NCBI GenBank assembly: GCA_964593925.1
Contig: CAZQKM010000019.1
Span: 19,081 to 43,080, forward strand
Source of the DNA: an uncultured Desulfovibrionaceae bacterium
GTDB taxonomy: Bacteria > Desulfobacterota > Desulfovibrionia > Desulfovibrionales > Desulfovibrionaceae
Length of the DNA stretch: 24,000 bases
Direction of reading: 5' to 3'
In this document: one piece after another, positions 10,512-22,644 of the stretch
Layout of the letters: each line of letters starts with the position of its first letter
How positions within the stretch are numbered: the stretch's first letter is position 1
Translations under genes and position numbers: made by a program
The notes under the pieces: model-generated
Seen by the model: only the letters and a program-made list of their open reading frames with translations
Database searches by the model: none
What the model was told of the DNA's origin: nothing

Positions 10512-11963
10512 TCAGGAAACCGTGTCCCCACTTTTACGGGATATATCACCATTACGCTTGATCATGCTAAAACGGCTCCAGTCGTGATACAGAAAAAGCC
10601 AAAACATAATCGTGGACTGAAACACCTGTGAAATGAGCATGGCCACAAATACGCCTTCGGAATTTTGCCACACATGGTGCCCCATCACATATGCCACCGG
10701 CAAACGCACCAGCCATGTAGCAGAACTGTATACAATAAATGTATAGACAGTGGCCCCTGCCCCGGTCATGATACCGCCCATGGTCATACTGGCCACGGTA
10801 AAAGGAACGGATATAAGATTGTACTTGAGGTATACGGCTGCTTGAGCTTGCACCAACGGTTCAGGCGATAAAAAAGCACATATACGGGCAACAAAGGGCC
10901 ACATCCCCACCGCCACCAAGCTCAACGAACCGCAGGCAATAAACAGTAGCCGTAGGGCCACACGCTTTGCCTCCTCTTTTTGCCCCGCACCCAGATAATG
11001 TCCCACCAGAATACTGGCAGTCATATTAAAGGCAAAAGCCGGCAAAAAAAGTAATGCTTCTATACGCATGCCGGCAGTCATCCCTGCCAGGGTATCTTCG
11101 CTGGCCAACGGCAACGAGCCCGTAATAGCAAAAAGCACCAAGTATCCTGCCTGCCACATGATCTGCATACCGCCGGCGGGCAGCGCCACCTTGAGCAGGT
11201 AAGGCCCGGCACGGCGTGCCCAGCGCCACGGTGCTGGCGTATCATAGCGCCACAGACCTTTTTTCCACAGCATCACAAGACTAAAAACAGCACCAGCTGA
11301 AACAGAAAAAAATGTGGCCCATGCAACCCCGGCATAGCCCATTTTGGGCAGCCCCCACCAGCCAAGTCCCAAGCCGAAATCAGCCACAGCATTCACAAGG
11401 CTCACCAGCATCATGCAAACAAGAGGAATATGGACTAACGTACGTGCTCGAAACGCCGCATTACTGATGTTCAACATATAGTACATGGGCAGCACATACA
11501 AATACACGTCATAAAAATACGCTGTCACAGGTCGGATACGCTCTGGAACCTGTAGTAAGTCGAGAAAAAGCTCTTTGGCAAAAAATCCGCATGCCAGAAC
11601 CAGCACACTTACGGCCAGTCCCAGCTTGAGCACCAGTGCCACATAGCGCTGTGCCCGTTTGGGTAACCCTGCTCCCATTGACTGGCCAATGGTCGCTACA
11701 GCAGCATTGGCAACAGCAATGGCTACAACCAACAAAAAAAACATACACTGCGTAATAATCCCCAGTGACGCCTGCACATCCTGATGGATTCTACCCGCTA
11801 CCCATACGTCCACAAAACCAATGAGAAAATGAAAAAACATCATGACCATCTGCGGCCATGTAAGGCTGAAAATGGCGGTATCAGACCCCCGCCCTGCCCA
11901 AGGGCTAAAACGCCCCAGTGCACCAGGTGCGGACAATTTGACAGATGAATGCGCGGAAGCCAT
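10512..11963 (-). CDS. MATE-family efflux transporter
   Basis: ORF 10512..12047(-). Preferred start is ATG 11963 (MASAHSS...). About 12 hydrophobic segments. The two half-repeat motifs IGQSMGAGLPKRAQRY and VGHYLGAGQKEEAKRV are typical of the internal duplication in MATE proteins. Confidence 0.8.
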   Translation of the reverse strand: MASAHSSVKLSAPGALGRFSPWAGRGSDTAIFSLTWPQMVMMFFHFLIGFVDVWVAGRIHQDVQASLGIITQCMFFLLVVAIAVANAAVATIGQSMGAGLPKRAQRYVALVLKLGLAVSVLVLACGFFAKELFLDLLQVPERIRPVTAYFYDVYLYVLPMYYMLNISNAAFRARTLVHIPLVCMMLVSLVNAVADFGLGLGWWGLPKMGYAGVAWATFFSVSAGAVFSLVMLWKKGLWRYDTPAPWRWARRAGPYLLKVALPAGGMQIMWQAGYLVLFAITGSLPLASEDTLAGMTAGMRIEALLFLPAFAFNMTASILVGHYLGAGQKEEAKRVALRLLFIACGSLSLVAVGMWPFVARICAFLSPEPLVQAQAAVYLKYNLISVPFTVASMTMGGIMTGAGATVYTFIVYSSATWLVRLPVAYVMGHHVWQNSEGVFVAMLISQVFQSTIMFWLFLYHDWSRFSMIKRNGDISRKSGDTVS

Positions 11964-12108
11964 AAGATACCAGCCTCGGAAAAATGTACTTGCCCTGCAA
12001 AAACAATCAACAATATGGCAAACGTTACATCGTGCCTCAGTTCCCAAGACAGGTCAACAAACTATACCCAAATACTGTAAAAGCATCTCGTATGCTGCCC
12101 CCAACAGC

Positions 12109-13167
12109 CTACGTTTCCAAAACATCTCCCACAGGGAGCTGATGAACACAGCCGCCTTCGTCCTTCAGCAGTAGCCTTCCACTATCATCCACATCCAGCA
12201 CCTGCCCTGTAATCACAGCATCCCCCCTGCCTAAACGGATATGATGTCCTACGATATGAGAGCATGACTTCCAACGGCTCACCACCGCACTTTCACCCTG
12301 AGTGCAAAATAACGTATACCATTCCTCCAGTGCTTCCAGGACATGCCGAGCCACGGGTGCGCGAGGAATCCTCCAGCCCTCTGGAGCCTGCTCGGCCACT
12401 CCTGCCATATGCTCACCTGTCACAGCTTCGCACAGCGAAATAGCCGTATCAGGCACTTCCAACCCCAACTTGCTACTGTCTGCAGACACATTAATACCCA
12501 CACCAAGCACAGCGTAGTCCAGCATGTCCGCAACCACCCCTGCCTCCACCAGGACCCCGCAAACCTTGCGTTGATGTATCAGCACGTCATTGGGCCACTT
12601 GGCAACAGCAGGCAAGCCTGTCATCTTACGTACAGCTTCAGTAACAGCAGCCGCTGTCAGCAAGGTTAATACGGGTACATTTTGCAGTGTACATCCGGGC
12701 CGCAGCAGCACAGACATGTATACGCCGCCGCCAGCTGGCGAATGCCATGTCCTGCCCTGCCGACCACGGCCGGCTGTCTGTTGCTCAGCAAGCACAACCG
12801 TGCCTTCCGCAGCGCCCTGCTCCGCCAACACCCGTGCCTCCATATTGGTGGAGGGTGTGCTGGCAAAATATACCACACGCCCCTGTCCAAAACATGCGGT
12901 ACGCAAACCATACCGAACTGCTTCATCCCGCAACGTATCCGCATCTCCCCCCAAGCGATAGCCATGCCGCGTTACGGCCTCCACAGGGTAGCCGACCTCT
13001 TTGAGCAATCGCATGTGCTTGGACACAGCCGCACGCGAGATACCAAGCTCCCGCCCCAATGTAGAACCTGAAACCCACTGCCCGGGATGTGCGTGCAAGA
13101 TTCGCAATATACTCAGACGCACGTGCTCGCCTTTGGAATCCTTTATCACAGTCAATTGTAAACCCAT
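12109..13167 (-). CDS. birA: Bifunctional biotin-[acetyl-CoA-carboxylase] ligase / biotin operon repressor
   Basis: The N-terminal winged HTH is STLGRELGISRAAVSKHMRLLKEVGYPVEAVTRHGYRL. The ligase motif is QTAGRGRQGRTWHSPAGGG (GRGRxGRxW). It is divergent from bioB. The start is uncertain: ATG 13167 has no SD and lies inside the operator, and GTG 13146 (VIKDSKGEH...) is an alternative. Confidence 0.9.
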   Translation of the reverse strand: MGLQLTVIKDSKGEHVRLSILRILHAHPGQWVSGSTLGRELGISRAAVSKHMRLLKEVGYPVEAVTRHGYRLGGDADTLRDEAVRYGLRTACFGQGRVVYFASTPSTNMEARVLAEQGAAEGTVVLAEQQTAGRGRQGRTWHSPAGGGVYMSVLLRPGCTLQNVPVLTLLTAAAVTEAVRKMTGLPAVAKWPNDVLIHQRKVCGVLVEAGVVADMLDYAVLGVGINVSADSSKLGLEVPDTAISLCEAVTGEHMAGVAEQAPEGWRIPRAPVARHVLEALEEWYTLFCTQGESAVVSRWKSCSHIVGHHIRLGRGDAVITGQVLDVDDSGRLLLKDEGGCVHQLPVGDVLET

Positions 13168-13188
13168 ATTAAAATAAAATGTTGACAA
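13156..13188. promoter_or_regulatory. BirA operator (bioO-like inverted repeat) in the birA-bioB divergent region
   Basis: TTGTAAACC (13156-13164), 15-nt A/T-rich spacer, then TGTTGACAA (13180-13188). The left half is identical to the E. coli-type BirA half-site TTGTAAACC. The right half matches GGTTTACAA at 7 of 9 positions. It lies 79 nt upstream of the bioB ATG and overlaps the annotated birA ATG. Confidence 0.7.
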
Positions 13189-13267
13189 TATAAAATACCA
13201 CACGCTACACCCCTTCCAGCCACTGACCCCATACCCTGTTGGCGTGGGTGACCATCAAGGATTGTAT

Positions 13268-14239
13268 ATGCTCATCGACTACACCGCACTATGCCAACGT
13301 ATTGTACACACCCCAGGCCTGGCTGCCACACCAGACGAAGCTGAGCGCCTTCTTGCCTTACCCCCCAGAGACACTCTGCCGTTATTGGCATGTGCCCAAC
13401 GCATCCGGCAAGCGCACAGCCCCACTGTATTTACATGCGCCATCATTAATGCGCGCTCAGGGCGCTGTGCCGAAAACTGCGCATTTTGTGCTCAATCAGC
13501 GCATCATGGCACCAATGCACCCATATATGATATGCTCTCCGTCACTGAGCTTATTCGGCGTGCCCAATGTTTTGCCGAAGCCGGTGTCAACAGGCTTGGA
13601 ATTGTCATTAGCGGCACGCGCCCCGGCATACGCGAAATTGACAGTGTATGTGAAGCCATACAACGCATTACAAAAAAAACATCGCTATCCATGTGTGCCT
13701 CGCTTGGCCTGATCACTGCCGAGCACGCGCAAATGCTCCACCAAGCGGGCCTTGAGCGTTACCACCACAATCTGGAAACCGCACGCAGCTTTTTTAACAA
13801 CATATGTACCACCCATGACTACGACGAAGCTGTGCATACCGTCAAACTCGCCCGACAGGCTGGCCTGCGCATCTGCTGTGGGGGTATTCTCGGTCTTGGT
13901 GAATCTTATGCGCACCTTACCGAACTGGCCGCAGAGCTTGAGCAGCTTACCGTGGACTCCATTCCCATAAATTTCCTTACACCCATTGCCGGAACCCCGC
14001 TGGCAAAACAGCCTCCAATGCCGCCTTTTGAGGCGTTACGCGCCATTGCTGCATTCCGATTCATGCATCCTGAACAGGATATCCTTGTGGCTGGCGGACG
14101 CGAGAATACACTTGGCCAGTACCGTTCATGGACCTTCATAAGCGGCGCCAACGGCCTTATGGTGGGTGACTACCTGACCACATCAGGCCAGGGGCTTACC
14201 CACGATTACGCCATGTTACGCGCCATGGGAGTTATCTAG
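13268..14239 (+). CDS. bioB: Biotin synthase (radical SAM)
   Basis: ORF 13244..14239(+). Preferred start is ATG 13268, with AAGGA 6 nt upstream. It has the radical-SAM motif CAENCAFC (CxxxCxxC), YHHNLET, and the overall BioB length and pattern. Confidence 0.95.
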   Translation: MLIDYTALCQRIVHTPGLAATPDEAERLLALPPRDTLPLLACAQRIRQAHSPTVFTCAIINARSGRCAENCAFCAQSAHHGTNAPIYDMLSVTELIRRAQCFAEAGVNRLGIVISGTRPGIREIDSVCEAIQRITKKTSLSMCASLGLITAEHAQMLHQAGLERYHHNLETARSFFNNICTTHDYDEAVHTVKLARQAGLRICCGGILGLGESYAHLTELAAELEQLTVDSIPINFLTPIAGTPLAKQPPMPPFEALRAIAAFRFMHPEQDILVAGGRENTLGQYRSWTFISGANGLMVGDYLTTSGQGLTHDYAMLRAMGVI

Positions 14240-15609
14240 TGTCGCATCCCCACGCCGAAACCCTCCGTTTACGCACCCTTGATGCCGCACATGTGTGGCA
14301 CCCTTTCACACAAATGGCCACCTGGCATAAAGACAATCCGCTTATCATCAACAGCGGCCAGGGAAGCTGGCTTACGGATACCGACGGCAAACGCTACCTA
14401 GACGGCGTATCCTCACTGTGGACCAATGTACATGGCCACAGGCATCCAGATATTGATGGCGCAGTACGCGATCAACTCGACAAAATTGCCCATTCCACCC
14501 TACTGGGCCTGTCCAATACACCTGCCGTAGAGTTGGCTGCCATGCTGGCAACTGTCAGTCCCCCAGGGCTTACACGTGTTTTTTACTCCGACAGTGGATC
14601 CAGTGCTGTGGAAGTAGCGCTAAAAATCGCGTATCAATATCAACGTCAACGCGGCCTCTCCGGTAAGGAGCGTACCGCCTTCTTGTGCCTGCACAACGCC
14701 TACCACGGCGATACCGTAGGAGCCGTTTCCCTAGGCGGTATTGACCTATTTCATGCGGTCTATGGTCCGCTGCTTTTTGCGACTGTTCGCGCCCAGAGCC
14801 CATACTGTTATCGTTGCCCTTTTGATAAAGAAGCCCAGAGCTGTGCCAAAGAATGCTTTACCCATCTGGAGGCAATGGCTGAACAGCATGCCACGGAACT
14901 GGCCGCATTAGTCATTGAGCCCCTGGTCCAAGGGGCTGCCGGCCAAGTTACGCATCCCCCAGGGTACCTCGCCCACGCTCGCAAGCTTTGCGACCATTAT
15001 GGAATGCTGCTCATTGCTGATGAGGTGGCAGTGGGGTTTGGCAAAACAGGCACACTCTTTGCCTGCGAACAAGAAAATGTAACTCCTGATCTGTTATGCT
15101 TGGCCAAAGGTATCTCTGGCGGCTACCTGCCTTTGGCCGCAACCCTTGCCACTGATGCGGTATATGAAGCATTTTTAGGTACCCATTCGGAGTGCCGCAC
15201 TTTTTTCCATGGTCATACCTACACCGGCAACCCGCTGGCTTGCGCCGCGGGTATCGCCAGCCTCAAGCTCTTTGACAGTGAAAATACCCTTGCCCGGCTG
15301 GGGGGTATCATCACTCACTATGCCGCCCTGCTGCATCCCCTCAAAGAACACCCTCATGTAGGGCAAATCCGCCGTCAAGGAATCATGACCGGTATTGAGC
15401 TGGTGGCAAAAAAAGACTCTAAAACGCCATATCCCTTTGCTGAACGCATGGGGCACAAAGTTGTCATGGCCGCCCGCAAACGGGGAGTTATTATCCGCCC
15501 TCTGGGAGATGTTCTAGTACTCATGCCACCTCTTAGCATCACTCCAAAAGAGTGTGATCTGTTGGTTAATGCCGTTGCCGAAGCCATTGACGAGGTCACA
15601 GGGGGCTAG
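14239..15609 (+). CDS. bioA: Adenosylmethionine-8-amino-7-oxononanoate aminotransferase
   Basis: GTG start overlaps the bioB TAG by 1 nt (TAGTG). Motifs are WHPFTQM, ADEVAVGFGKTGTLFACE and LAKGISGGYLPL (PLP lysine region). 456 aa. Confidence 0.95.
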   Translation: MSHPHAETLRLRTLDAAHVWHPFTQMATWHKDNPLIINSGQGSWLTDTDGKRYLDGVSSLWTNVHGHRHPDIDGAVRDQLDKIAHSTLLGLSNTPAVELAAMLATVSPPGLTRVFYSDSGSSAVEVALKIAYQYQRQRGLSGKERTAFLCLHNAYHGDTVGAVSLGGIDLFHAVYGPLLFATVRAQSPYCYRCPFDKEAQSCAKECFTHLEAMAEQHATELAALVIEPLVQGAAGQVTHPPGYLAHARKLCDHYGMLLIADEVAVGFGKTGTLFACEQENVTPDLLCLAKGISGGYLPLAATLATDAVYEAFLGTHSECRTFFHGHTYTGNPLACAAGIASLKLFDSENTLARLGGIITHYAALLHPLKEHPHVGQIRRQGIMTGIELVAKKDSKTPYPFAERMGHKVVMAARKRGVIIRPLGDVLVLMPPLSITPKECDLLVNAVAEAIDEVTGG

Positions 15610-15613
15610 CGCC

Positions 15614-15934
15614 ATGCATATGCCGAATACCGGATCACATGCCATGCCACAAAAACTATATGGCAGCTTTCATTTTTCCCCCCATGACCCCGTGTATGTA
15701 GAGCATTTTCCTGGTGCCCCCTGTGTACCGGGCTCCTTCCTTGTAGCCGCTTTTACCCAAGTGGCCACACAGCACGTACATGCAGGTCCCTGGCATGCAC
15801 ATAATTTTCGATTTCGAAGCTTCGTACCACCAGGAACACATCCTTTTTGCGTGGAATACTCGACAACAGAACTACGATGTACCCTGCATGTAGGCGAACT
15901 CAAGGCTATTACAGGAAAACTCTTATGTCGCTGA
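15614..15934 (+). CDS. Truncated FabZ-like hotdog-fold protein (3-hydroxyacyl-ACP dehydratase homologue, catalytic His present, Glu position = Ala)
   Basis: ORF 15554..15934(+). Preferred start is ATG 15614, 4 nt after the bioA stop. FSPHDPVYVEHFPGAPCVPGSFLVAAFTQVAT aligns without gaps to the FabZ motif N-E-P-F-F-x-G-HFPGxPxxPGVLxxEAxAQ. FRFRSFVPPG matches the FabZ ARFKRPVVPG region. It is only 106 aa and lacks the N-terminal PHRFPFLLVD strand. Confidence 0.7.
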   Translation: MHMPNTGSHAMPQKLYGSFHFSPHDPVYVEHFPGAPCVPGSFLVAAFTQVATQHVHAGPWHAHNFRFRSFVPPGTHPFCVEYSTTELRCTLHVGELKAITGKLLCR

Positions 15935-16686
15935 GCTTTCGCCATGGGGCCGTATTGATTCTAGGTGGTAGCAGCCATCTGGGGCGTACTGTGGCATATG
16001 CGCTTATGGCCGCGGGGGTCCCTGTTTGCCTCAGCGTCCGGAATAGTCAGCGCCAGGCAGACTTGGCCCATGCTTTTGCAGCCTCCTACCCCGCAACTGT
16101 CACAGCGGATCTTAGCTCTCCAGATGCAGCAGATAGCCTCATCCTACAAGTAGAACATGCCCTGCAACAACAGTATGGTACGGATTTAACCGTAGGCTAC
16201 CTAGTGGACTTTCTGCACACCGACTATGAAACGCTGCTCGCCGCAGCTGCTCCTGAACGCATCAGTACCTATGTGGAGAGTAACATCACATGGCGTGGCC
16301 GTATGCTCCGTGGTGTCAGTCGTCACATGCTACATCACGGCACAGGGCGCATGCTGTTTGTTTCTTCTACTGCGGCCGTGCTGCCCAATGCAGGGCAAGG
16401 ACTATATAGTGCATCAAAGCTGGCGGGCGAAGCGCTGTATCGCAATATGGGTATAGAGCTGGCAGCCAAGGGTATAACTACCTGTAGCCTACGCCTGGGA
16501 TACGTCAATGCAGGACGTGGAGCACAATACCTGCAACAGACCGATGTTACGACACGTATCCCCATGCAGCGTGCCTTGAGTTCCATAGAAGTAGCACAGG
16601 CCTGCACATTTTTACTCTGTGACCACTCCATCGGTATCAATGCCACCACAATAACCATGGACGGCGGCCTTACCGCCTGTAAATAA
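15925..16686 (+). CDS. Short-chain dehydrogenase/reductase, FabG-like (3-oxoacyl-ACP reductase homologue)
   Basis: ORF 15847..16686(+). Preferred start is ATG 15925 (MSLSFRHGAVLILGGSSHLGRTVA...), with AGGAAA 6 nt upstream and a 10-nt overlap with the previous gene. It has a Rossmann glycine motif GGSSHLG and the catalytic elements FVSSTAA ... YSASKLAGE (S, YxxxK). 253 aa. Confidence 0.85.
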   Translation: MSLSFRHGAVLILGGSSHLGRTVAYALMAAGVPVCLSVRNSQRQADLAHAFAASYPATVTADLSSPDAADSLILQVEHALQQQYGTDLTVGYLVDFLHTDYETLLAAAAPERISTYVESNITWRGRMLRGVSRHMLHHGTGRMLFVSSTAAVLPNAGQGLYSASKLAGEALYRNMGIELAAKGITTCSLRLGYVNAGRGAQYLQQTDVTTRIPMQRALSSIEVAQACTFLLCDHSIGINATTITMDGGLTACK

Positions 16687-16700
16687 CAGGAGAACTCGTC

Positions 16701-17114
16701 ATGTCGAGCCCACACCACCCCCAGGATATCACAGAAAAAATATATAGCATCATTGTAGACATACTGGATATTTCACCAAATGTACTGACCCCACAGACCT
16801 ATGTCATGCGTGAGCTTGATACAGAATCCATTGATCTTCTGGAGTATGGTGTAGCGTTAAACGCCACATTTGGTATCCCCGTACATGACGACACCGTGTT
16901 TCTTCGCTCACTGCGAACACATCTGCTTGAAGCTCAGCATACCGAAATTTCTGCAGAAGCCTATCTAGCCACATGGTACCCCCACCTGAGTGCCACACGC
17001 ATTGTAGAGATCATACATACAGTGGACCAAGGCCCCGTACTACGCATACAGGATATTACAGACTATGTCCGCCATACCCTGAACAAACAGGAACAAAGCG
17101 GACATGTCAGTTGA
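16701..17114 (+). CDS. Atypical acyl carrier protein (137 aa)
   Basis: AGGAGA lies 7 nt upstream of ATG 16701. ITEKIYSIIVDILDISPNVLTPQTYVMRELDTESIDLLEYGVALNATFGIPVHDD aligns to ACP helix I through helix II, with Ser43 (tcc, 16827-16829) at the phosphopantetheine position (D-S-L-D becomes E-S-I-D). It has about 55-60 residues more than canonical ACPs. Confidence 0.75.
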   Translation: MSSPHHPQDITEKIYSIIVDILDISPNVLTPQTYVMRELDTESIDLLEYGVALNATFGIPVHDDTVFLRSLRTHLLEAQHTEISAEAYLATWYPHLSATRIVEIIHTVDQGPVLRIQDITDYVRHTLNKQEQSGHVS

Positions 17115-18468
17115 ATTGCATCGTGTGGTTATTACCGGGGCAGGGGCCATTACGCCACAGGGTAACACCCCCCAAGCTGTAGTCGATGCCTTCAGAAGCG
17201 GATACACGGCCTTTGAGCCTGCACCGCTCTTACCCGGTGTAGCACAAGCCCCTGCCTGGTTTGATGTAAACAGTGAGCTTTGCTCTTGGCGACACCGTCG
17301 CTATCTGAATCGAGGTGCGGCCATGTGTGTAGCCGCCGCACTGCAAGCCGCACGGCACGCAAAAGCTACAGAATTTCCTCCGCGCTGTGGCCTGTTCATC
17401 GGTTGCGGCCCCAACCTTGAACCTTACAGTCATGCCGCTCCTGAAGCAGACAGTACTTGCAGCAATTCCGGGCCTTCCGCCCTGTGGATCCTGCGATATC
17501 TACCCAATACAGCCGCATCGGCCATAAGCCGACTTTTGGGTATCCATGGCGAAAACCTGACATTGGGAACAGCCTGTACCGCCTCACTACAGGCACTAGG
17601 CGAAGCCTTTCGGCGTATCCGTCGAGGCGAGATGCCCATGGCTCTGGCAGGCGGTGGAGACTCACGCCTGTCGCGCCAAGGCTTGCTGGCCTATGCCCAG
17701 GCTGGAGCACTGGCTCCTTGTGCCCCTGCCCCAGCAAAAGAAACGGAACAGGGGCAGCACATGAGCACACCTTTTTTTACCACCGTCCATATACAGCAGC
17801 TACCCGCTGCACCACTGGCCTGCCGCCCTTTTGATCTTTCGCGTCAGGGTTTTGTAGCCGGTGAGGGAGCAGGCATGTATGTACTGGAGTCTCTGGACCA
17901 CGCTCTTACACGTGGAGCTCGCCCACTGGCAGAAATACTCGGATACGGAGCTTCCATGGACGGGCATGCCATGACCGCACCGGATCCTTATGGAACCCAC
18001 GCCGAAACCGCGGTGCGTACCGCACTAGAAGAGGCGGACATCCACCCTGAAGACATTGCTGCCATATGCGCACACGGCACCGGAACCTCGCGCAACGATG
18101 AAGCTGAAGCCAGCATGCTTCAAAGGCTATTTGCCGACACAACATACAGACCTCCGGTTCTGGCTCTTAAATCATGGACCGGACACTGTGCTTCTGCCTG
18201 CGGTGCGGTGGAGCTGGCCTTGCTGCTAGCCTGTTCCCGTAACGGCTTCTTACCCCCGATACGCAACCTGCGCAACCCGCTTACCCCTGCGCTGGCACTG
18301 ATGCGCCATGTCCAACCATTTATTCCCGCAGATCCTCCTGTCACGGACCACATACCAGCACCGCCACACACCCCCTCAACCATTCTGTTAGAAAATTTCG
18401 GATTTGGAGGCCAAAATGCCGCACTTGTTGTTCGTCCTTTCAGCCCTTGCAAATCAGACGGAGTCTAG
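17104..18468 (+). CDS. Beta-ketoacyl-ACP synthase, FabF/FabB (KAS I/II, Cys-His-His) type
   Basis: ATG 17104 overlaps the ACP gene end by 11 nt. Motifs are HRVVITGAGAITPQG, active-site GTAC(158)TAS (TGT 17575-17577), RPFD, CAH(324)GTGT, K(356)SWTGH(361)CASACG and ENFGFGGQNAALVV. 454 aa. Confidence 0.9.
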   Translation: MSVELHRVVITGAGAITPQGNTPQAVVDAFRSGYTAFEPAPLLPGVAQAPAWFDVNSELCSWRHRRYLNRGAAMCVAAALQAARHAKATEFPPRCGLFIGCGPNLEPYSHAAPEADSTCSNSGPSALWILRYLPNTAASAISRLLGIHGENLTLGTACTASLQALGEAFRRIRRGEMPMALAGGGDSRLSRQGLLAYAQAGALAPCAPAPAKETEQGQHMSTPFFTTVHIQQLPAAPLACRPFDLSRQGFVAGEGAGMYVLESLDHALTRGARPLAEILGYGASMDGHAMTAPDPYGTHAETAVRTALEEADIHPEDIAAICAHGTGTSRNDEAEASMLQRLFADTTYRPPVLALKSWTGHCASACGAVELALLLACSRNGFLPPIRNLRNPLTPALALMRHVQPFIPADPPVTDHIPAPPHTPSTILLENFGFGGQNAALVVRPFSPCKSDGV

Positions 18469-18472
18469 TTAG

Positions 18473-18982
18473 ATGCATCTCGCTCCTTTAAGTGTACATA
18501 GCGGACTTCCCGCCAACCCTAAGGGCAGCATACATCCACGCTTTGTACTGCCCCGCAGCCTAGATGCCCCTACGGCAAATACTCTTTCCGGCTTTCTGTC
18601 CTCTTGGCATGGCAATACTCCACTCTGGTATGTAACTGAGGCTCTTGCTCAACTTGCAACACTCCATACCCGCTGGCTTTGCGATTTTGCCTGCCATGGC
18701 TTTTTACTGTCTATCCGCAGCCTGCCGACAACGCCCTCCATACATCCTGCGGTTTCCGCAAAAAATGAAAAAGAAAAAGCATACCACATACATGCCGAAC
18801 TGCTTGCCCAAAGTGGCGCTGGGCATACCAAAACCTTTGAGTACAAAGTGTCACTTGAACTCCCCACACACCCCGTACAGGGCGTCCTGCGTACCGCTAC
18901 CCGCCCTTATGACCAGACATTTTCGGCCACCCTACTACAGACTCGCTACCAAAGGCTGTTTACATGGCTCCAACAGCATTAA
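18473..18982 (+). CDS. Hypothetical protein, probable degenerate FabZ-like hotdog (Glu motif present, canonical His position = Leu)
   Basis: ATG 18473 lies 4 nt after the KAS stop, and the 3' end overlaps bioF by 19 nt. SIHPRFVLPRSLD resembles the FabZ N-terminal LPHRFPFLLVDRV. NTPLWYVTEALAQLATL aligns to PxxPGVLxxEAMAQ, with Glu56 (gag, 18638-18640) at the catalytic Glu position. Similarity is weak and judged by eye only. Confidence 0.5.
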   Translation: MHLAPLSVHSGLPANPKGSIHPRFVLPRSLDAPTANTLSGFLSSWHGNTPLWYVTEALAQLATLHTRWLCDFACHGFLLSIRSLPTTPSIHPAVSAKNEKEKAYHIHAELLAQSGAGHTKTFEYKVSLELPTHPVQGVLRTATRPYDQTFSATLLQTRYQRLFTWLQQH

Positions 18983-20124
18983 ACGCACACCTTGAAACAC
19001 TACGTCATGCGAGCTGCCATCGTACCCGACCAGAGATCTCGGCACGGCAGGGAAAATGGATCGAACTGGACGGCACCCGTTTATTGAATTTTGCCTCCAA
19101 TGATTACTTGGGGCTGGCTGCATGCCCACAATGGCACGCCACTGTAGCCCAGTGCTTTGCCACCCACGCACCCTGCGCCTCTGCTTCTCCTCTTGCTGGC
19201 GGGCACTCCTCTGTGGTTCAAAAGGCGGAACAGACTCTTGCCACCTACTTCGGCTATGATGAAGCTCTGCTCATGCCCAGCGGATATCAGGCAAACATTG
19301 CGGTATTGTGGGTAATGAGCATGGCCCATGGGCGGATACTCTATGACAAACGCATCCATGCCAGCACGGCCATGGCCATACGCGGTAGCAGCGCCATCCC
19401 CCATGGTTTTATCCATAATGACATGAGCGCACTAGAGCGCAGGCTACGTCATATCGTATACAAACATACACACTGCACTGGTGATGCCGTTTTTGTGGAA
19501 TCATTATATAGTATGGATGGTGACAGCCCGAACTTTAGCGCCCTTGGCAAGCTCAAGGAGCGTTATGGCTATACTCTCGTTGTTGATGAAGCCCACGCCC
19601 TAGGGGTGCTGGGGCCGGGTGGGCGGGGGCTGGGCGCTGGCACTGCGGATATCGCCGTGGGCACTCTTGGTAAGGCTCTTGGCCTGTTCGGCGCATTCAT
19701 CCTGCTACCAAAAGGGTGGAGCGAATTTTTCCAAAACCTGGCTTCACCGTTTATACACTCCACAGCGTTGCCCGACGCACATGCAGCCTGCGTGACCTAC
19801 CTGCCAAAACAACTGGCAAGCATGGATACACAACGGGCGCACCTAGCTGCCATGAGTAGCCTGCTACATGAAAAACTGCACCATGCGGGCCTGCCTACAC
19901 AAGGTCGTGAGCACATTGTCGTGGTCCCCATAGGCGCTGAACAACGGGCTACTGCTGTGGCAGAGGCATTACGACACCAAAGCATCTTTGCCCTAGCAGC
20001 ACGCCCCCCCACAACCCCCAGGGGCAAATCCGTTGTACGCCTTGGTGTGACTGCGCTGCATACCCCCCATGACATTGAGATCTGCGCACAAGCGCTTATT
20101 CGCAGTATCCGGAGTATACCATGA
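18964..20124 (+). CDS. bioF: 8-amino-7-oxononanoate synthase
   Basis: Motifs are LLNFASNDYLGLA, VVDEAHALGVLGPGGRG and GTLGKALG (PLP lysine). 386 aa. The N-terminus is collinear with E. coli BioF. Confidence 0.9.
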   Translation: MAPTALNAHLETLRHASCHRTRPEISARQGKWIELDGTRLLNFASNDYLGLAACPQWHATVAQCFATHAPCASASPLAGGHSSVVQKAEQTLATYFGYDEALLMPSGYQANIAVLWVMSMAHGRILYDKRIHASTAMAIRGSSAIPHGFIHNDMSALERRLRHIVYKHTHCTGDAVFVESLYSMDGDSPNFSALGKLKERYGYTLVVDEAHALGVLGPGGRGLGAGTADIAVGTLGKALGLFGAFILLPKGWSEFFQNLASPFIHSTALPDAHAACVTYLPKQLASMDTQRAHLAAMSSLLHEKLHHAGLPTQGREHIVVVPIGAEQRATAVAEALRHQSIFALAARPPTTPRGKSVVRLGVTALHTPHDIEICAQALIRSIRSIP

Positions 20125-20831
20125 AAAAACATACCTTGTTGCCCGAAGACCTTTTTGTCACCGGAACCGACACTGACGTGGGCAAAACCACAGTCAGCCT
20201 GTTACTGTTACGCGCATGGCGCGAATACGGTCATGAAGCCCGCTATTTCAAACCGGTACAGACGGGTTGCGCACATCCGGATGATGCCATGGGCGATGCC
20301 CACTTTATCCACAGCCACAATCCGCAATGCACACAGACTTCTCACACGTCCACCGGACTGTGCTTCACAGCCCCCAAAGCCCCACTTTATGCTGCGCGCG
20401 ATCAAAAGCACACCATAGAACTGAAAACGCTTCTGCACAGACTGGCATGCCTGCGCCAACCCCATAGCCCCTTAGTTGTAGAAGGCTCTGGAGGGCTCAT
20501 GGTACCACTCAATGAACAAAATACCATGGCAGATTTCATCAAAGCCACAGGGATGCGCACCATACTGATAGCCCGCACCGGCCTTGGCACCATCAACCAC
20601 ACGCTCCTTTCGCTGGAAGCCCTCAAGGTTCGCAATGTGAACGTGGCAGGCATCCTGTTTGTAGAAACAGAGCGCATCCCTCCAGCCCAATCCATGGTTC
20701 AAGAAAACATGGAAGCCATCGCCACGTTTTCAGGTACACGTGTCAGTGGAGTCATTCCGTACATTGCCGATTTTCAAACTCCGCCAGCCCAGGCTCAGTA
20801 CACTGTACAACAGATACTGGAGGCGCTGTAA
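20121..20831 (+). CDS. bioD: Dethiobiotin synthetase
   Basis: ATGA overlap with the bioF stop, and GGAG upstream. P-loop LFVTGTDTDVGKTTVS. 236 aa. Confidence 0.9.
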   Translation: MKKHTLLPEDLFVTGTDTDVGKTTVSLLLLRAWREYGHEARYFKPVQTGCAHPDDAMGDAHFIHSHNPQCTQTSHTSTGLCFTAPKAPLYAARDQKHTIELKTLLHRLACLRQPHSPLVVEGSGGLMVPLNEQNTMADFIKATGMRTILIARTGLGTINHTLLSLEALKVRNVNVAGILFVETERIPPAQSMVQENMEAIATFSGTRVSGVIPYIADFQTPPAQAQYTVQQILEAL

Positions 20832-20846
20832 CACCGACTCTGTACG

Positions 20847-22109
20847 TCAGCTCAGTTCGGGAAAACAGGCAAGTACGTCTTCAATGCGGTCACGCCGGCG
20901 AATAAGCCTGTGCGAGCCTTGCATGTCCACAAGTACCTCTGCGGGGCGCAGCCGCTGGGTATACCCCGAACTCATGGAAAACCCGTATGCACCAGCATCA
21001 AGCATGGCCAAGACATCACCTTCGCGCATTTCAGGCAAAGCACATTCTTTAACCATGATATCACCCGACTCACAAATATTACCCACCACGGTCTGAGGCA
21101 TGGTCTGCTCCACGGGAGCGCCGCCATGACGGTGGATCTCCACATCATGATACGCATCATACAGCATCGGACGCTGCAAGGTGTTAAACCCAAGATCAGT
21201 CCCTACAAAGCGGCGTGTGCCATTATCTTTCACGGCATGGACTGTGCCCAACAAGACACCACACTCCGCAGCCACATACCTACCGGGCTCCACCATAAAA
21301 CGACCGCCATACCCTGTACGCTTAGCCCACTGGCTAATACTCTCATGCAGTTGGGCACCCATATCTCCCATGTCAAGACGGGGTTGGCCCTCGTATTTTC
21401 TGTACGGAATGCCAAACCCACCCCCAAAATCGATAAGCTCCACAGAGGGCCACTGCTCTGCCTCTCGTAACAAGAAAGACACGGCCTCCATGTAGCTAGA
21501 CGGATCCATAAACAATGAGCCAATGTGCTGATTCAAGCCCACAAGCGTCAGATCATGGCGCGCCAAGATAGCGCGCACGGCATCGCCATCATCCGCCCCA
21601 ATGCCAAATTTGGTATCCTCACCCGCAGTGATAACCTTTGCATGATGACCTGCGCCAATACCAGGGTTGATACGAATCATGGCCCTACCACCAGGATTCA
21701 CACGCCCTAAAAGATCCAGCTGAGACAAAGAGTCCACGCTGATAAGTACACCGTGCTCCACGGCATTACGTATCTCCTCTGCGGAAACATTATTGCACAC
21801 ATATGTGATTTCATCAGTGGCAAACCCTGCGGCAATGTGCACGGCAAGCTCACCAGGTGACATGGCATCTACAGCCAAACCTTCAGAACGGATAATGCGC
21901 AGCAATGACAGGTTGGCATTAGATTTTGCTGAGTAACTTACACAAAATCCAGGATGTGAGGAAAGCCCCTTTAACTCGCGGCAACGCTCACGCAATATTC
22001 TTTCACTATAGACATACAAAGGGCTACCATATATTTCTACCAGTTCCATGGGCGTTGAAGAGGCAAAAAATTTCTGTGCATCTGTTACTACTGAACGAAC
22101 ATTTTTCAT
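20847..22109 (-). CDS. lysA: Diaminopimelate decarboxylase
   Basis: ORF 20847..22151(-). Preferred start is ATG 22109 (MKNVRSVV...), preceded by GGGGAAAAG. Motifs are YGSPLYVYSE, YSAKSNANLSLL (PLP lysine), GGGFGIPY and NICESGD. It is a fold-type III PLP decarboxylase of LysA length. A related decarboxylase of the same family cannot be fully excluded. Confidence 0.8.
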   Translation of the reverse strand: MKNVRSVVTDAQKFFASSTPMELVEIYGSPLYVYSERILRERCRELKGLSSHPGFCVSYSAKSNANLSLLRIIRSEGLAVDAMSPGELAVHIAAGFATDEITYVCNNVSAEEIRNAVEHGVLISVDSLSQLDLLGRVNPGGRAMIRINPGIGAGHHAKVITAGEDTKFGIGADDGDAVRAILARHDLTLVGLNQHIGSLFMDPSSYMEAVSFLLREAEQWPSVELIDFGGGFGIPYRKYEGQPRLDMGDMGAQLHESISQWAKRTGYGGRFMVEPGRYVAAECGVLLGTVHAVKDNGTRRFVGTDLGFNTLQRPMLYDAYHDVEIHRHGGAPVEQTMPQTVVGNICESGDIMVKECALPEMREGDVLAMLDAGAYGFSMSSGYTQRLRPAEVLVDMQGSHRLIRRRDRIEDVLACFPELS

Positions 22110-22644
22110 CTTTTCCCCATTAGAAGCGCATATCTTTTTACAAAAAAACAAAATCTTGCAAAATATTACGCAACTCCATCAATCATAAAATTTTCTCAGA
22201 AATACACAATACAAAAAAATAATTTTACAAATATATCAGGCAATAGTGCATGCAATATTCATAAAATGACAACCACAAAAAACATGAAAACAACGTGATA
22301 CAAGAATCTATGTGCAAAAAAATCTTGAAATACCTACAATAATACATCTACATAAAAAGACGCATACCAGCATGCATGAGACAGGCAACATATAGCAGCA
22401 GTCCATGCTATATATTTAATAATATTTTTGAAAAACATACACCTACGTACTACTATCCCTACGAATTTGCCCTGTCAATGCATCTTTAGCCCCTCGACAT
22501 CCAGCCTCTCCTTTCACTCCAGACAGGCCCACCGAATGCCCTGCCTTTACCTTCCTCCATGTTTTATCTAACATTTGTATCACAGGCCATAACTGCCTTT
22601 TGACGTCTCCTTCTCTGTTTCCCTCTACAGCTGCCGGAGAAAAC

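What the first reader, a model, noticed from the sequence alone, without database searches (positions are those of the whole stretch)
15614..15934. FabZ-like hotdog that keeps the catalytic His but has Ala at the catalytic Glu position and lacks the N-terminal strand
Seen in sequence: EHFPGAPCVPGSFLVAAFTQ aligns without gaps to the FabZ motif HFPGxPxxPGVLxxEAxAQ.
- The PG at +8/+9 and the Q at +18 are conserved.
- His31 (cat, 15704-15706) is present.
- The residue at +14, which is the catalytic Glu in FabZ, is Ala45 (gcc, 15746-15748).
- The protein is only 106 aa and starts just before this motif, so the N-terminal PHRFPFLLVD segment of FabZ is missing.

Established knowledge: in FabZ/FabA dimers each active site is built from the His of one subunit and the Glu or Asp of the other.

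Inference: as a homodimer this protein should be catalytically dead. It probably needs a partner that donates the acidic residue (see the finding at 18473-18982).
Basis: partly seen in the sequence, partly recalled or inferred. Interest (0 to 1): 0.7.

Follow-up and report, generated by a model that had tools for sequence, protein, structure and literature searches.

The report
Half of a split biotin-pathway dehydratase
This small gene in a biotin operon encodes the histidine-bearing half of a two-protein dehydratase whose glutamate-bearing half lies four genes downstream, an arrangement already solved for the ApeI:ApeP pair of aryl-polyene synthesis but not yet described for biotin synthesis.

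Summary
Window 15614-15934 encodes a 106-aa FabZ-like hotdog with His31, Ala45 at the FabZ Glu position, and no N-terminal strand. It lies in the known Desulfovibrio-type extended biotin operon: bioB-bioA-HD1-SDR-ACP-KAS-HD2-bioF-bioD, with a BirA operator.

- **HD1 in 18 orthologous bio clusters:** the His motif is invariant. The +14 position is unconstrained (Q5 H4 E2 D2 G2 A1 S1 N1), so "Ala" is one state of a relaxed site. The short N-terminus is a family trait.
- **HD2 (18473-18982):** it is present in all 11 clusters that extend far enough. It is the mirror image of HD1. It keeps an invariant Glu56 in an EAxAQ motif across 109 sequences and keeps the FabZ N-terminal strand. It has a 14-residue deletion exactly over the FabZ His loop.
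- **Known precedent:** HD1 matches ApeI (hhalign 93.7%; 6qsr_A). The best solved-structure match of the HD2 model is ApeP (6qsr_B). ApeI:ApeP is described as a heterodimeric dehydratase with a single active site, and E. coli ApeI and ApeP show the same His-only/Glu-only split.

Best explanation: an HD1:HD2 heterodimer with one composite His31/Glu56 site dehydrates 3-hydroxyacyl-ACP intermediates on the way to pimeloyl-ACP. The complex is inferred, not shown. I rate it a new member of a known kind, of moderate interest.

The parts
13156..13188 (.). BirA operator, TTGTAAACC-N15-tGTTGACAA, between divergent birA and bioB
   Evidence: It matches the consensus and the Desulfovibrio sites listed in PMC545781.
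12109..13203 (-). birA, biotin ligase/repressor. The true start is probably the ATG near 13167, which overlaps the operator.
   Evidence: Pfam HTH_11, BPL_LplA_LipB and BPL_C; sequence.
13244..14239 (+). bioB
   Evidence: Pfam Radical_SAM and BATS.
14239..15609 (+). bioA
   Evidence: Pfam Aminotran_3, E=1e-103.
15614..15934 (+). HD1: 106-aa ApeI-like/FabZ-like hotdog. This is the His-bearing half of the proposed split dehydratase and the subject of the finding.
   Evidence: (precomputed PF22818 ApeI-like).
15704..15706 (+). His31 codon (cat), the proposed catalytic base. Invariant in 18 of 18 bio-context orthologues and across the 126-sequence family alignment.
15746..15748 (+). Ala45 codon (gcc), at the position of FabZ Glu68. 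The position is unconstrained in orthologues.
15925..16686 (+). SDR, a FabG-like 3-oxoacyl-ACP reductase. Its start overlaps the HD1 stop by 10 nt.
16701..17114 (+). Dedicated acyl carrier protein of 137 aa, with a C-terminal extension of about 55 aa
   Evidence: Pfam PP-binding and NCBIfam ACP models cover only residues 8-66.
17104..18468 (+). KAS I/II-type ketosynthase. The Cys and His motifs are present.
18473..18982 (+). HD2: 169-aa ApeP-like hotdog. This is the Glu-bearing half. It lacks the His loop and keeps the N-terminal strand.
18638..18640 (+). Glu56 codon of HD2, the proposed catalytic acid. Invariant in the 109-sequence alignment and aligned to FabZ Glu68 and to the ApeP Glu.
18665..18673 (+). 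His65-Thr66-Arg67 of HD2. His65 and Arg67 are invariant in the family; their role is unknown.
18964..20124 (+). bioF
   Evidence: Pfam Aminotran_1_2.
20121..20831 (+). bioD
   Evidence: Pfam AAA_26, the dethiobiotin synthetase type.

Best explanation
HD1 (15614-15934) and HD2 (18473-18982) are the two subunits of an ApeI:ApeP-type heterodimeric 3-hydroxyacyl-ACP dehydratase. In a FabZ-type dimer each active site takes its His from one subunit and its Glu from the other. Here HD1 supplies only the His (His31) and HD2 supplies only the Glu (Glu56). The heterodimer therefore has one working site, His31(HD1)/Glu56(HD2). The symmetry-related site is vacant, because HD2 has no His loop and HD1 position 45 is free to drift.

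The enzyme works within the dedicated ACP/KAS/SDR module of the BirA-controlled biotin operon. It would dehydrate the 3-hydroxy intermediates, presumably 3-hydroxyglutaryl-ACP and 3-hydroxypimeloyl-ACP, made while malonyl-ACP is elongated to pimeloyl-ACP, the BioF substrate.

Shown here: the sequence features, their conservation, the gene linkage, the predicted folds, and the similarity to ApeI and ApeP. Inferred: physical heterodimerisation, the composite active site, and the substrates.
For: **HD1 is a FabZ/ApeI-like hotdog.**
- Pfam FabA, E=9e-6.
- Precomputed PF22818 ApeI-like on the identical protein and on the L001 orthologue.
- hhalign to E. coli ApeI: probability 93.7%, E=2e-7.
- The model matches FabZ structures and 6qsr_A.

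**Conservation in HD1.**
- Across 18 bio clusters His and the HFPGxPxVPG motif are invariant, while +14 has 2.75 bits of entropy and an acid in only 4 of 18.
- Internal control within one search: FabZ-like hits with PG[V/A/I/L] are 95% acidic at +14 (n=21). The short PG[S/T] class is 26% acidic (n=111).

**HD2 is the complement.**
- E56, A59, Q60, H65 and R67 are invariant in 109 sequences.
- None of 112 homologues has a His motif.
- Alignment with E. coli FabZ shows a 14-residue deletion exactly over FQGHFPGKPIFPGV, with E56 on Glu68.
- The model is a hotdog (pLDDT 84.6) and its best PDB match is 6qsr_B, ApeP.
- hhalign to E. coli ApeP gives E=4e-4 with Glu aligned on Glu.

**E. coli ApeI and ApeP show the same split.**
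- ApeI has HFAVQPLLPG. ApeP has no His motif but has LELMAQ and the N-terminal PMLLLEDV.
- They map to 6qsr_A and 6qsr_B.
- PMC8041823 describes ApeI/ApeP as heterodimeric dehydratases with a single active site.

**Linkage and genetics.**
- HD2 is present between KAS and bioF in 11 of 11 loci that reach that far.
- In D. vulgaris the whole cluster, which includes both FabZ-like genes DVU2560 and DORF42491, is needed for growth without biotin (PMC10102598).
Against: - No direct evidence of a complex.
- The sequence link from HD2 to FabZ/ApeP is weak. hhalign probability is only 35%. There is no Pfam, NCBIfam or PDB sequence hit. The HD1 and HD2 profiles do not match each other.
- Foldseek scores HD2 almost equally against Arthrobacter 4-hydroxybenzoyl-CoA thioesterases, so the fold alone does not exclude a thioesterase.
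- Four of 18 HD1 orthologues keep E or D at +14, so some HD1 homodimers might retain activity.
- The substrates are deduced from pathway logic, not tested.
Confidence: 0.7

Rival explanations
1. HD1 works alone as a homodimeric dehydratase, using His31 with water or some other residue as the acid. HD2 has a separate job, for example as a hotdog thioesterase or a chain-length/product-release factor acting on pimeloyl-ACP.
For: - The HD2 model matches Arthrobacter 4-hydroxybenzoyl-CoA thioesterases nearly as well as ApeP or FabZ.
- One source labels an HD2 homologue 'Thioesterase'.
- HD2 has no Pfam or NCBIfam dehydratase hit.
Against: - HD1 has no invariant acidic residue that could replace the Glu, and +14 is unconstrained.
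- HD2 carries the FabZ-type EAxAQ motif and the N-terminal strand, and its Glu aligns with the ApeP Glu.
- A free-pimelate route would need a BioW-like ligase, which Rodionov et al. report as missing in Desulfovibrio (PMC545781).
- From established knowledge: E. coli BioF accepts pimeloyl-ACP directly.
Confidence: 0.12
2. HD1 and HD2 do form a heterodimer, but it catalyses something other than simple dehydration. Examples are a FabA-like isomerisation or a decarboxylation step specific to dicarboxylate intermediates. HD2 His65 and Arg67 would be the key residues.
For: - His65 and Arg67 are invariant in HD2 and absent from FabZ and ApeP.
- The pathway chemistry has not been worked out (PMC10102598).
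Against: - The cluster otherwise lacks any dehydratase candidate, and the elongation cycle needs one.
- The conserved His/Glu pair is the canonical dehydratase dyad.
Confidence: 0.1
3. HD1 is a non-catalytic or degenerate remnant, such as a scaffold or an ACP-docking subunit. The dehydration would be done by housekeeping FabZ, possibly paired with HD1 or HD2.
For: - HD1 is truncated and lacks the acid.
- NCBIfam FabZ scores are far below the cut-off: 20.9 bits against 113.
Against: - The His motif is invariant across more than 100 family members, and the model is confident (pLDDT 92).
- The gene is retained in every bio cluster examined.
- The D. vulgaris cluster that includes the FabZ-like gene DVU2560 is needed for growth without biotin.
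Confidence: 0.05

Closest known systems
ApeI:ApeP dehydratase heterocomplex of aryl-polyene type II PKS (PDB 6QSR, Xenorhabdus doucetiae; E. coli CFT073 ApeI and ApeP)
   Same: - A short hotdog of about 110 aa with the His motif and no N-terminal strand (ApeI, like HD1).
- A hotdog of about 150 aa with the Glu motif, the N-terminal strand and no His loop (ApeP, like HD2).
- Both are encoded in one cluster together with a dedicated ACP, KS and KR, and the pair is described as having a single active site.
- Support: hhalign HD1 to ApeI 93.7%; best solved-structure match of HD2 is 6qsr_B.
   Different: - The context is a BirA-regulated biotin operon, not an APE gene cluster.
- The presumed substrates are short ω-carboxy acyl-ACPs rather than aryl-polyenoyl-ACPs.
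- HD2 is only remotely related to ApeP (19% identity in the structural alignment; hhalign probability 35%). It carries its own invariant His65/Arg67 and a conserved C-terminal helix.
- Neither protein hit any NCBIfam model other than FabZ.
FabZ (3-hydroxyacyl-ACP dehydratase of type II fatty acid synthesis)
   Same: Hotdog fold, the HFPGxPxxPG His motif, the FRFRxxVxPG strand, and active sites built across a dimer interface.
   Different: - FabZ subunits each carry both His and Glu, so the dimer has two sites per pair.
- HD1 lacks the Glu and the N-terminal strand and is about 45 aa shorter.
- HD1 scores 20.9 bits against the 113-bit cut-off of the FabZ equivalog model.
Desulfovibrio extended biotin operon (DVU2558-DVU2565; Rodionov 2004, Trotter 2023)
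   Same: - Same gene set and order, with the BirA box between birA and bioB.
- DVU2560 and DORF42491 are already noted as FabZ-like, and the cluster is genetically required for growth without biotin.
   Different: - The papers I could search treat the two FabZ-like genes simply as dehydratase candidates.
- None describes the His-only/Glu-only split, a heterodimer, or the ApeI/ApeP relationship.
Double-hotdog dehydratases (PKS/FAS DH domains) and mycobacterial HadAB/HadBC
   Same: This comparison rests on established knowledge and was not tested here. These enzymes have two unequal hotdog halves that build one active site. In PKS DH domains the His sits in the N-terminal half and the acid in the C-terminal half.
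   Different: - Those halves are fused (PKS/FAS), or one subunit carries both catalytic residues (HadB).
- Here the dyad is split between two separate small proteins.

Membership tests
FabZ (canonical homodimeric 3-hydroxyacyl-ACP dehydratase) | Hotdog fold with the His of the HxxxGxxxxP-type motif | tested here: met
   Pfam FabA E=9e-6. The AF2 model (pLDDT 92) superposes on FabZ structures with TM 0.62-0.74. His31 is present.
FabZ (canonical homodimeric 3-hydroxyacyl-ACP dehydratase) | Catalytic Glu 14 residues after the His, in the same polypeptide | tested here: not met
   Ala45 in this protein. The position is unconstrained in 18 orthologues.
FabZ (canonical homodimeric 3-hydroxyacyl-ACP dehydratase) | N-terminal strand (PHRxPFLLVD) and full length of about 145-170 aa; score above the curated equivalog cut-off | tested here: not met
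   The protein is 106 aa. The Pfam match starts at profile position 26. NCBIfam FabZ scores 20.9 bits against a 113-bit cut-off.
ApeI-like short dehydratase subunit (Pfam PF22818) | Sequence and profile similarity to ApeI | tested here: met
   - Precomputed PF22818 on the identical protein P0001 and on the L001 orthologue.
- hhalign to E. coli ApeI: probability 93.7%, E=2e-7 over the full length.
- My own Pfam scan listed only FabA.
ApeI-like short dehydratase subunit (Pfam PF22818) | Short hotdog that keeps the His motif and lacks the FabZ N-terminal strand; fold like 6qsr_A | tested here: met
   (6qsr_A: TM 0.69/0.66, rmsd 2.8 Å).
ApeI:ApeP-type heterodimeric dehydratase | A partner gene in the same cluster encoding a hotdog with the Glu motif but no His loop | tested here: met
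   HD2: invariant Glu56, a 14-residue deletion over the His loop, best PDB match 6qsr_B, and presence in 11 of 11 clusters that reach far enough.
ApeI:ApeP-type heterodimeric dehydratase | Physical 1:1 heterocomplex with one composite His/Glu site | not testable with these tools
It needs co-expression and pull-down, or a structure.
ApeI:ApeP-type heterodimeric dehydratase | Location in an aryl-polyene biosynthetic gene cluster | tested here: not met
   The context is bioB-bioA-...-bioF-bioD with a BirA box. None of the APE-specific genes seen in the CFT073 cluster is present.
Desulfovibrio-type extended biotin operon | ACP, KAS, SDR and two hotdog genes inserted between bioA and bioF, with a BirA operator upstream | tested here: met
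   The same architecture occurs in L001-L016 and L018 and is described in PMC545781 and PMC10102598.

The most novel reading that the evidence does not exclude
The biotin-operon pair is a dedicated dehydratase for free ω-carboxy intermediates (3-hydroxyglutaryl-ACP and 3-hydroxypimeloyl-ACP). The invariant His65/Arg67 of HD2, absent from FabZ and ApeP, would recognise the distal carboxylate and help fix the chain length at C7. This would explain how these anaerobes make pimeloyl-ACP without the BioC/BioH methyl-ester disguise. It would also mean that an aryl-polyene-type PKS dehydratase architecture was recruited into primary cofactor metabolism.
Probability: 0.25. Interest if true: 0.65.

Novelty: new member of a known kind. 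Interest (0 to 1): 0.45.

Why it matters
How Desulfovibrio and related anaerobes make the pimeloyl precursor of biotin has been open since the extended operon was noticed in 2004. Genetics in 2023 showed the whole cluster is needed, but no enzyme has been characterised.

Recognising the two FabZ-like genes as the His half and the Glu half of one ApeI:ApeP-type enzyme has two consequences:
- It gives a concrete experimental recipe: co-express both proteins, then mutate His31 of HD1 and Glu56 of HD2.
- It explains why a single-protein assay of either would probably fail.

It also extends the split-dyad heterodimeric dehydratase from a pigment pathway into primary metabolism. Finally, it shows that a missing catalytic Glu in this protein family reflects relaxed selection on a vacant second site, not a pseudogene.

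Tried and rejected
- **Complex prediction.** I built HD1-(GGGGS)6-HD2 fusions with a paired alignment of 10 loci (A5).
- **HD1 against HD2.** Profile-profile comparison of the two families found nothing (probability 0.5%). Their relationship rests on each one's link to FabZ, ApeI or ApeP.
- **HD2 against libraries.** The HD2 profile against PDB sequences gave no hit up to E=10. Pfam and NCBIfam also gave none.
- **Single-sequence homologue searches.** These were nearly empty: 3 hits for HD1 and only self for HD2. An exhaustive profile search and an alignment query were needed.
- **L023.** It is labelled as a Klebsiella MAG and I took it for an APE cluster. It is a high-GC locus with a FabZ-like protein carrying both His and Glu, so it was not useful. 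I used the E. coli CFT073 APE cluster instead.
- **Source paper for ApeI:P.** The JACS 2019 paper is not held. The \"single active site\" statement is cited from PMC8041823.
- **Organism.** The window is about 52% GC and syntenic with the Logan contig L001. I did not establish its taxonomy.
- **An upstream start restoring the N-terminal strand.** Rejected.
- **Pseudogene or degenerate remnant.** Rejected because the motif is invariant and the model is confident.

Full report
**1.

Window 15614-15934 is an ORF of 106 codons (ATG to TGA). It starts 4 nt after the bioA stop and overlaps the start of the next gene by 10 nt. His31 is cat at 15704-15706 and Ala45 is gcc at 15746-15748.

HFPGAPCVPGSFLVAAFTQ aligns without gaps to the E. 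coli FabZ segment HFPGKPIFPGVLILEAMAQ. His31 falls on FabZ His54 and Ala45 on FabZ Glu68.

The similarity is significant:
- Pfam FabA: E=9.2e-6, above the gathering score.
- A small profile against PDB FabZ 1u1z: E=1.5e-6.
- The AlphaFold2 model (pLDDT 92) superposes on FabZ structures with TM 0.62-0.74.

The N-terminal FabZ strand is truly absent. The Pfam match begins at profile position 26 of 138. The in-frame upstream extension overlaps bioA and has no such segment. In all 18 orthologues the candidate start nearest the His motif lies 13-30 residues before it.

**2. Context: a known operon**

The gene order is birA(-) | bioB, bioA, HD1, SDR, ACP, KAS, HD2, bioF, bioD. A BirA operator, TTGTAAACC-N15-tGTTGACAA, lies at 13156-13188 between birA and bioB.

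This is the extended biotin operon first noted in Desulfovibrio by Rodionov et al. 2004 (PMC545781). Trotter et al. 2023 (PMC10102598) showed by transposon fitness that the nine genes DVU2558-DVU2565 are needed without biotin. [quoted passage not shown] They also found that an unlinked nitroreductase-like gene, DVU1220, is required.

The proposed route elongates malonyl-ACP to pimeloyl-ACP on a dedicated ACP without methyl-ester intermediates. No enzyme of the module has been characterised.

**3. Orthologues show a relaxed acid position in HD1**

An exhaustive profile search found 1,481 relatives at E≤1e-3, most of them about 95-125 aa long. A genome scan returned 55 loci. Seventeen of them (L001-L016 and L018) have the bio-type neighbourhood.

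In the window plus these loci (18 sequences):
- H, F, P, G, P, V, P and G of the motif are invariant.
- Position +14 reads Q5 H4 E2 D2 G2 A1 S1 N1, with 2.75 bits of entropy, among the highest in that stretch.
- The Gln at +18 is also not conserved.

An internal control comes from the same search. Hits with the FabZ-type PG[V/A/I/L] are 95% acidic at +14 (n=21). The short PG[S/T] class to which HD1 belongs is 26% acidic (n=111).

So the Ala is not a specific substitution. Selection on the acid has been lost in this family, while the His remains under strict selection.

**4. The partner is the mirror image**

HD2 (18473-18982, 169 aa) has no Pfam, NCBIfam or PDB sequence hit. An ORF of this family sits between KAS and bioF in all 11 bio-type clusters, the window included, that extend that far.

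An alignment-based search found 113 homologues, nearly all unnamed. In the 109-sequence alignment E56, A59, Q60, H65, R67 and L166 are invariant. None of 112 homologues has an HFPG-type motif.

Aligned with E. coli FabZ, the family shows three things:
- A 14-residue deletion exactly over FQGHFPGKPIFPGV.
- E56 placed on Glu68, A59 on Ala71 and Q60 on Gln72.
- Retention of the N-terminal strand (F-V/L-L-L-D-x-V) that HD1 lacks.

The AlphaFold2 model (pLDDT 84.6) is a hotdog with only about 8 residues between the strand at residues 37-42 and the central helix, plus an extra C-terminal helix. An HMM of HD2 weakly hits FabZ-like ORFs in other loci at E=1e-5 to 1e-3.

**5. The solved precedent**

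The best PDB match of the HD2 model is 6qsr_B, from [quoted passage not shown]. HD1 matches 6qsr_A with TM 0.69/0.66.

I located the E. coli CFT073 aryl-polyene cluster and read its two dehydratase genes:
- ApeI (117 aa) has GHFAVQPLLPG and no N-terminal strand.
- ApeP (154 aa) has PMLLLEDV at its N-terminus and LELMAQ, but no His motif.
- They correspond to 6qsr_A and 6qsr_B at E=4e-40 and 2e-47.

hhalign gives the HD1 profile against ApeI a probability of 93.7% and E=2e-7 over the full length. The HD2 profile against ApeP gets probability 35% and E=4e-4, with strand on strand and Glu on Glu.

Precomputed Pfam already labels the identical protein P0001 and the L001 orthologue as PF22818 ApeI-like. 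[quoted passage not shown]

**6. Mechanism**

Established knowledge: each FabZ/FabA site uses the His of one subunit and the Glu or Asp of the other.

Inference: an HD1:HD2 heterodimer has exactly one complete site, His31(HD1) with Glu56(HD2). The symmetry-related site lacks its His because the HD2 loop is deleted. That explains why HD1 position 45 drifts freely.

The enzyme would carry out the dehydration step of the two elongation rounds between malonyl-ACP and pimeloyl-ACP. The HD2-specific invariant His65/Arg67 may recognise the distal carboxylate of these unusual substrates. This last idea is speculation.

I put the heterodimer model at about 0.7.

**7. Rivals**

- **(a) HD1 active alone, HD2 a thioesterase or release factor (about 0.12).** The HD2 model matches Arthrobacter 4-hydroxybenzoyl-CoA thioesterases almost as well as ApeP. 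Against this, HD1 has no alternative conserved acid, HD2 carries FabZ-type motifs, and no pimelate ligase is reported in these genomes.
- **(b) A heterodimer with chemistry other than dehydration (about 0.1).**
- **(c) HD1 as a non-catalytic remnant (about 0.05).** This is contradicted by the invariant His motif and by the genetic requirement for the D. vulgaris cluster that includes DVU2560.

**8. Novelty and limits**

The operon, the FabZ-like nature of both genes and the ApeI:ApeP architecture are all published. What I did not find in the searchable literature is the link between them. That library lacks most subscription journals.

The finding is therefore a new member of a known kind. Its practical value is that it turns an uncharacterised step of an alternative biotin pathway into a specific, testable two-protein experiment.

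Limits:
- No complex model could be made.
- The HD2-ApeP relationship is remote.
- The organism could not be named.

Noticed in passing
window 13156-13188: A near-perfect BirA operator, TTGTAAACC-N15-tGTTGACAA, lies between divergent birA and bioB. The listed GTG start of birA (13203) lies beyond it. The real birA start is probably the ATG near 13167, inside the left half-site.
   Followed up: partly
window 16701-17114: The cluster's ACP is 137 aa. ACP models cover only residues about 8-66, leaving a C-terminal extension of about 55-70 aa. Orthologues keep the extension (112-146 aa, with a conserved 'YP.LS..R..EI' stretch). Its function is unknown.
   Followed up: partly
L003 9887-10519; L004 10444-11097; L005 1752-2426; L006, L007, L009, L011, L012, L013, L015: In the Syntrophales, Desulfobacterales, Cloacimonadota and related loci listed here, a nitroreductase-like gene of about 210-224 aa sits between the ACP and KAS genes. 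This fits the unlinked nitroreductase DVU1220 that D. vulgaris needs for biotin synthesis. It is absent from this window (best tblastn E=2.8) and from L001, where ACP and KAS abut.
   Followed up: partly
window 18665-18673 (HD2 His65-Thr66-Arg67): His65 and Arg67 on the central helix are invariant in 109 HD2 homologues and have no counterpart in FabZ or ApeP. They might bind the ω-carboxylate, the ACP or the partner. This was not tested.
   Followed up: no
window 17104-18468: The KAS keeps the Cys/His/His motifs. Compared with the orthologues aligned, it has a lineage-specific insertion of about 16-26 aa (KETEQGQHMSTPFFTTVHIQQLPAAP) and a proline-rich insertion near the C-terminus of about 3-16 aa. 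Both are only partly shared with L001.
   Followed up: partly
L016 3855-4451 (Nitratidesulfovibrio liaohensis); proteins P0063, P0068, P0078: HD1 orthologues of the Nitratidesulfovibrio type carry a low-complexity insertion of about 70-100 residues between the central helix and the FRFRxF strand. The profile search therefore matches them in two stretches.
   Followed up: no
proteins P0105 (390 aa), P0121 (416 aa), P0133 (584 aa): Some HD1/ApeI-like domains are the C-terminal part of much longer proteins. This is consistent with the ApeH-ApeI (acyl-ACP synthetase-dehydratase) fusion reported for Acinetobacter baumannii in PMC8041823.
   Followed up: no
family-wide: In the short PG[S/T] class the commonest residue at the former Glu position is His (29 of 111), more frequent than Glu. 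I do not know whether this means anything or is drift.
   Followed up: no
window 10512-12047 (-) and 20847-22151 (-); L001 4132-5619 and 15294-16598: The flanking genes are a MatE-family transporter upstream of birA and an Orn/DAP/Arg decarboxylase (lysA-like) downstream of bioD. Both are syntenic between the window and the Logan contig L001.
   Followed up: no
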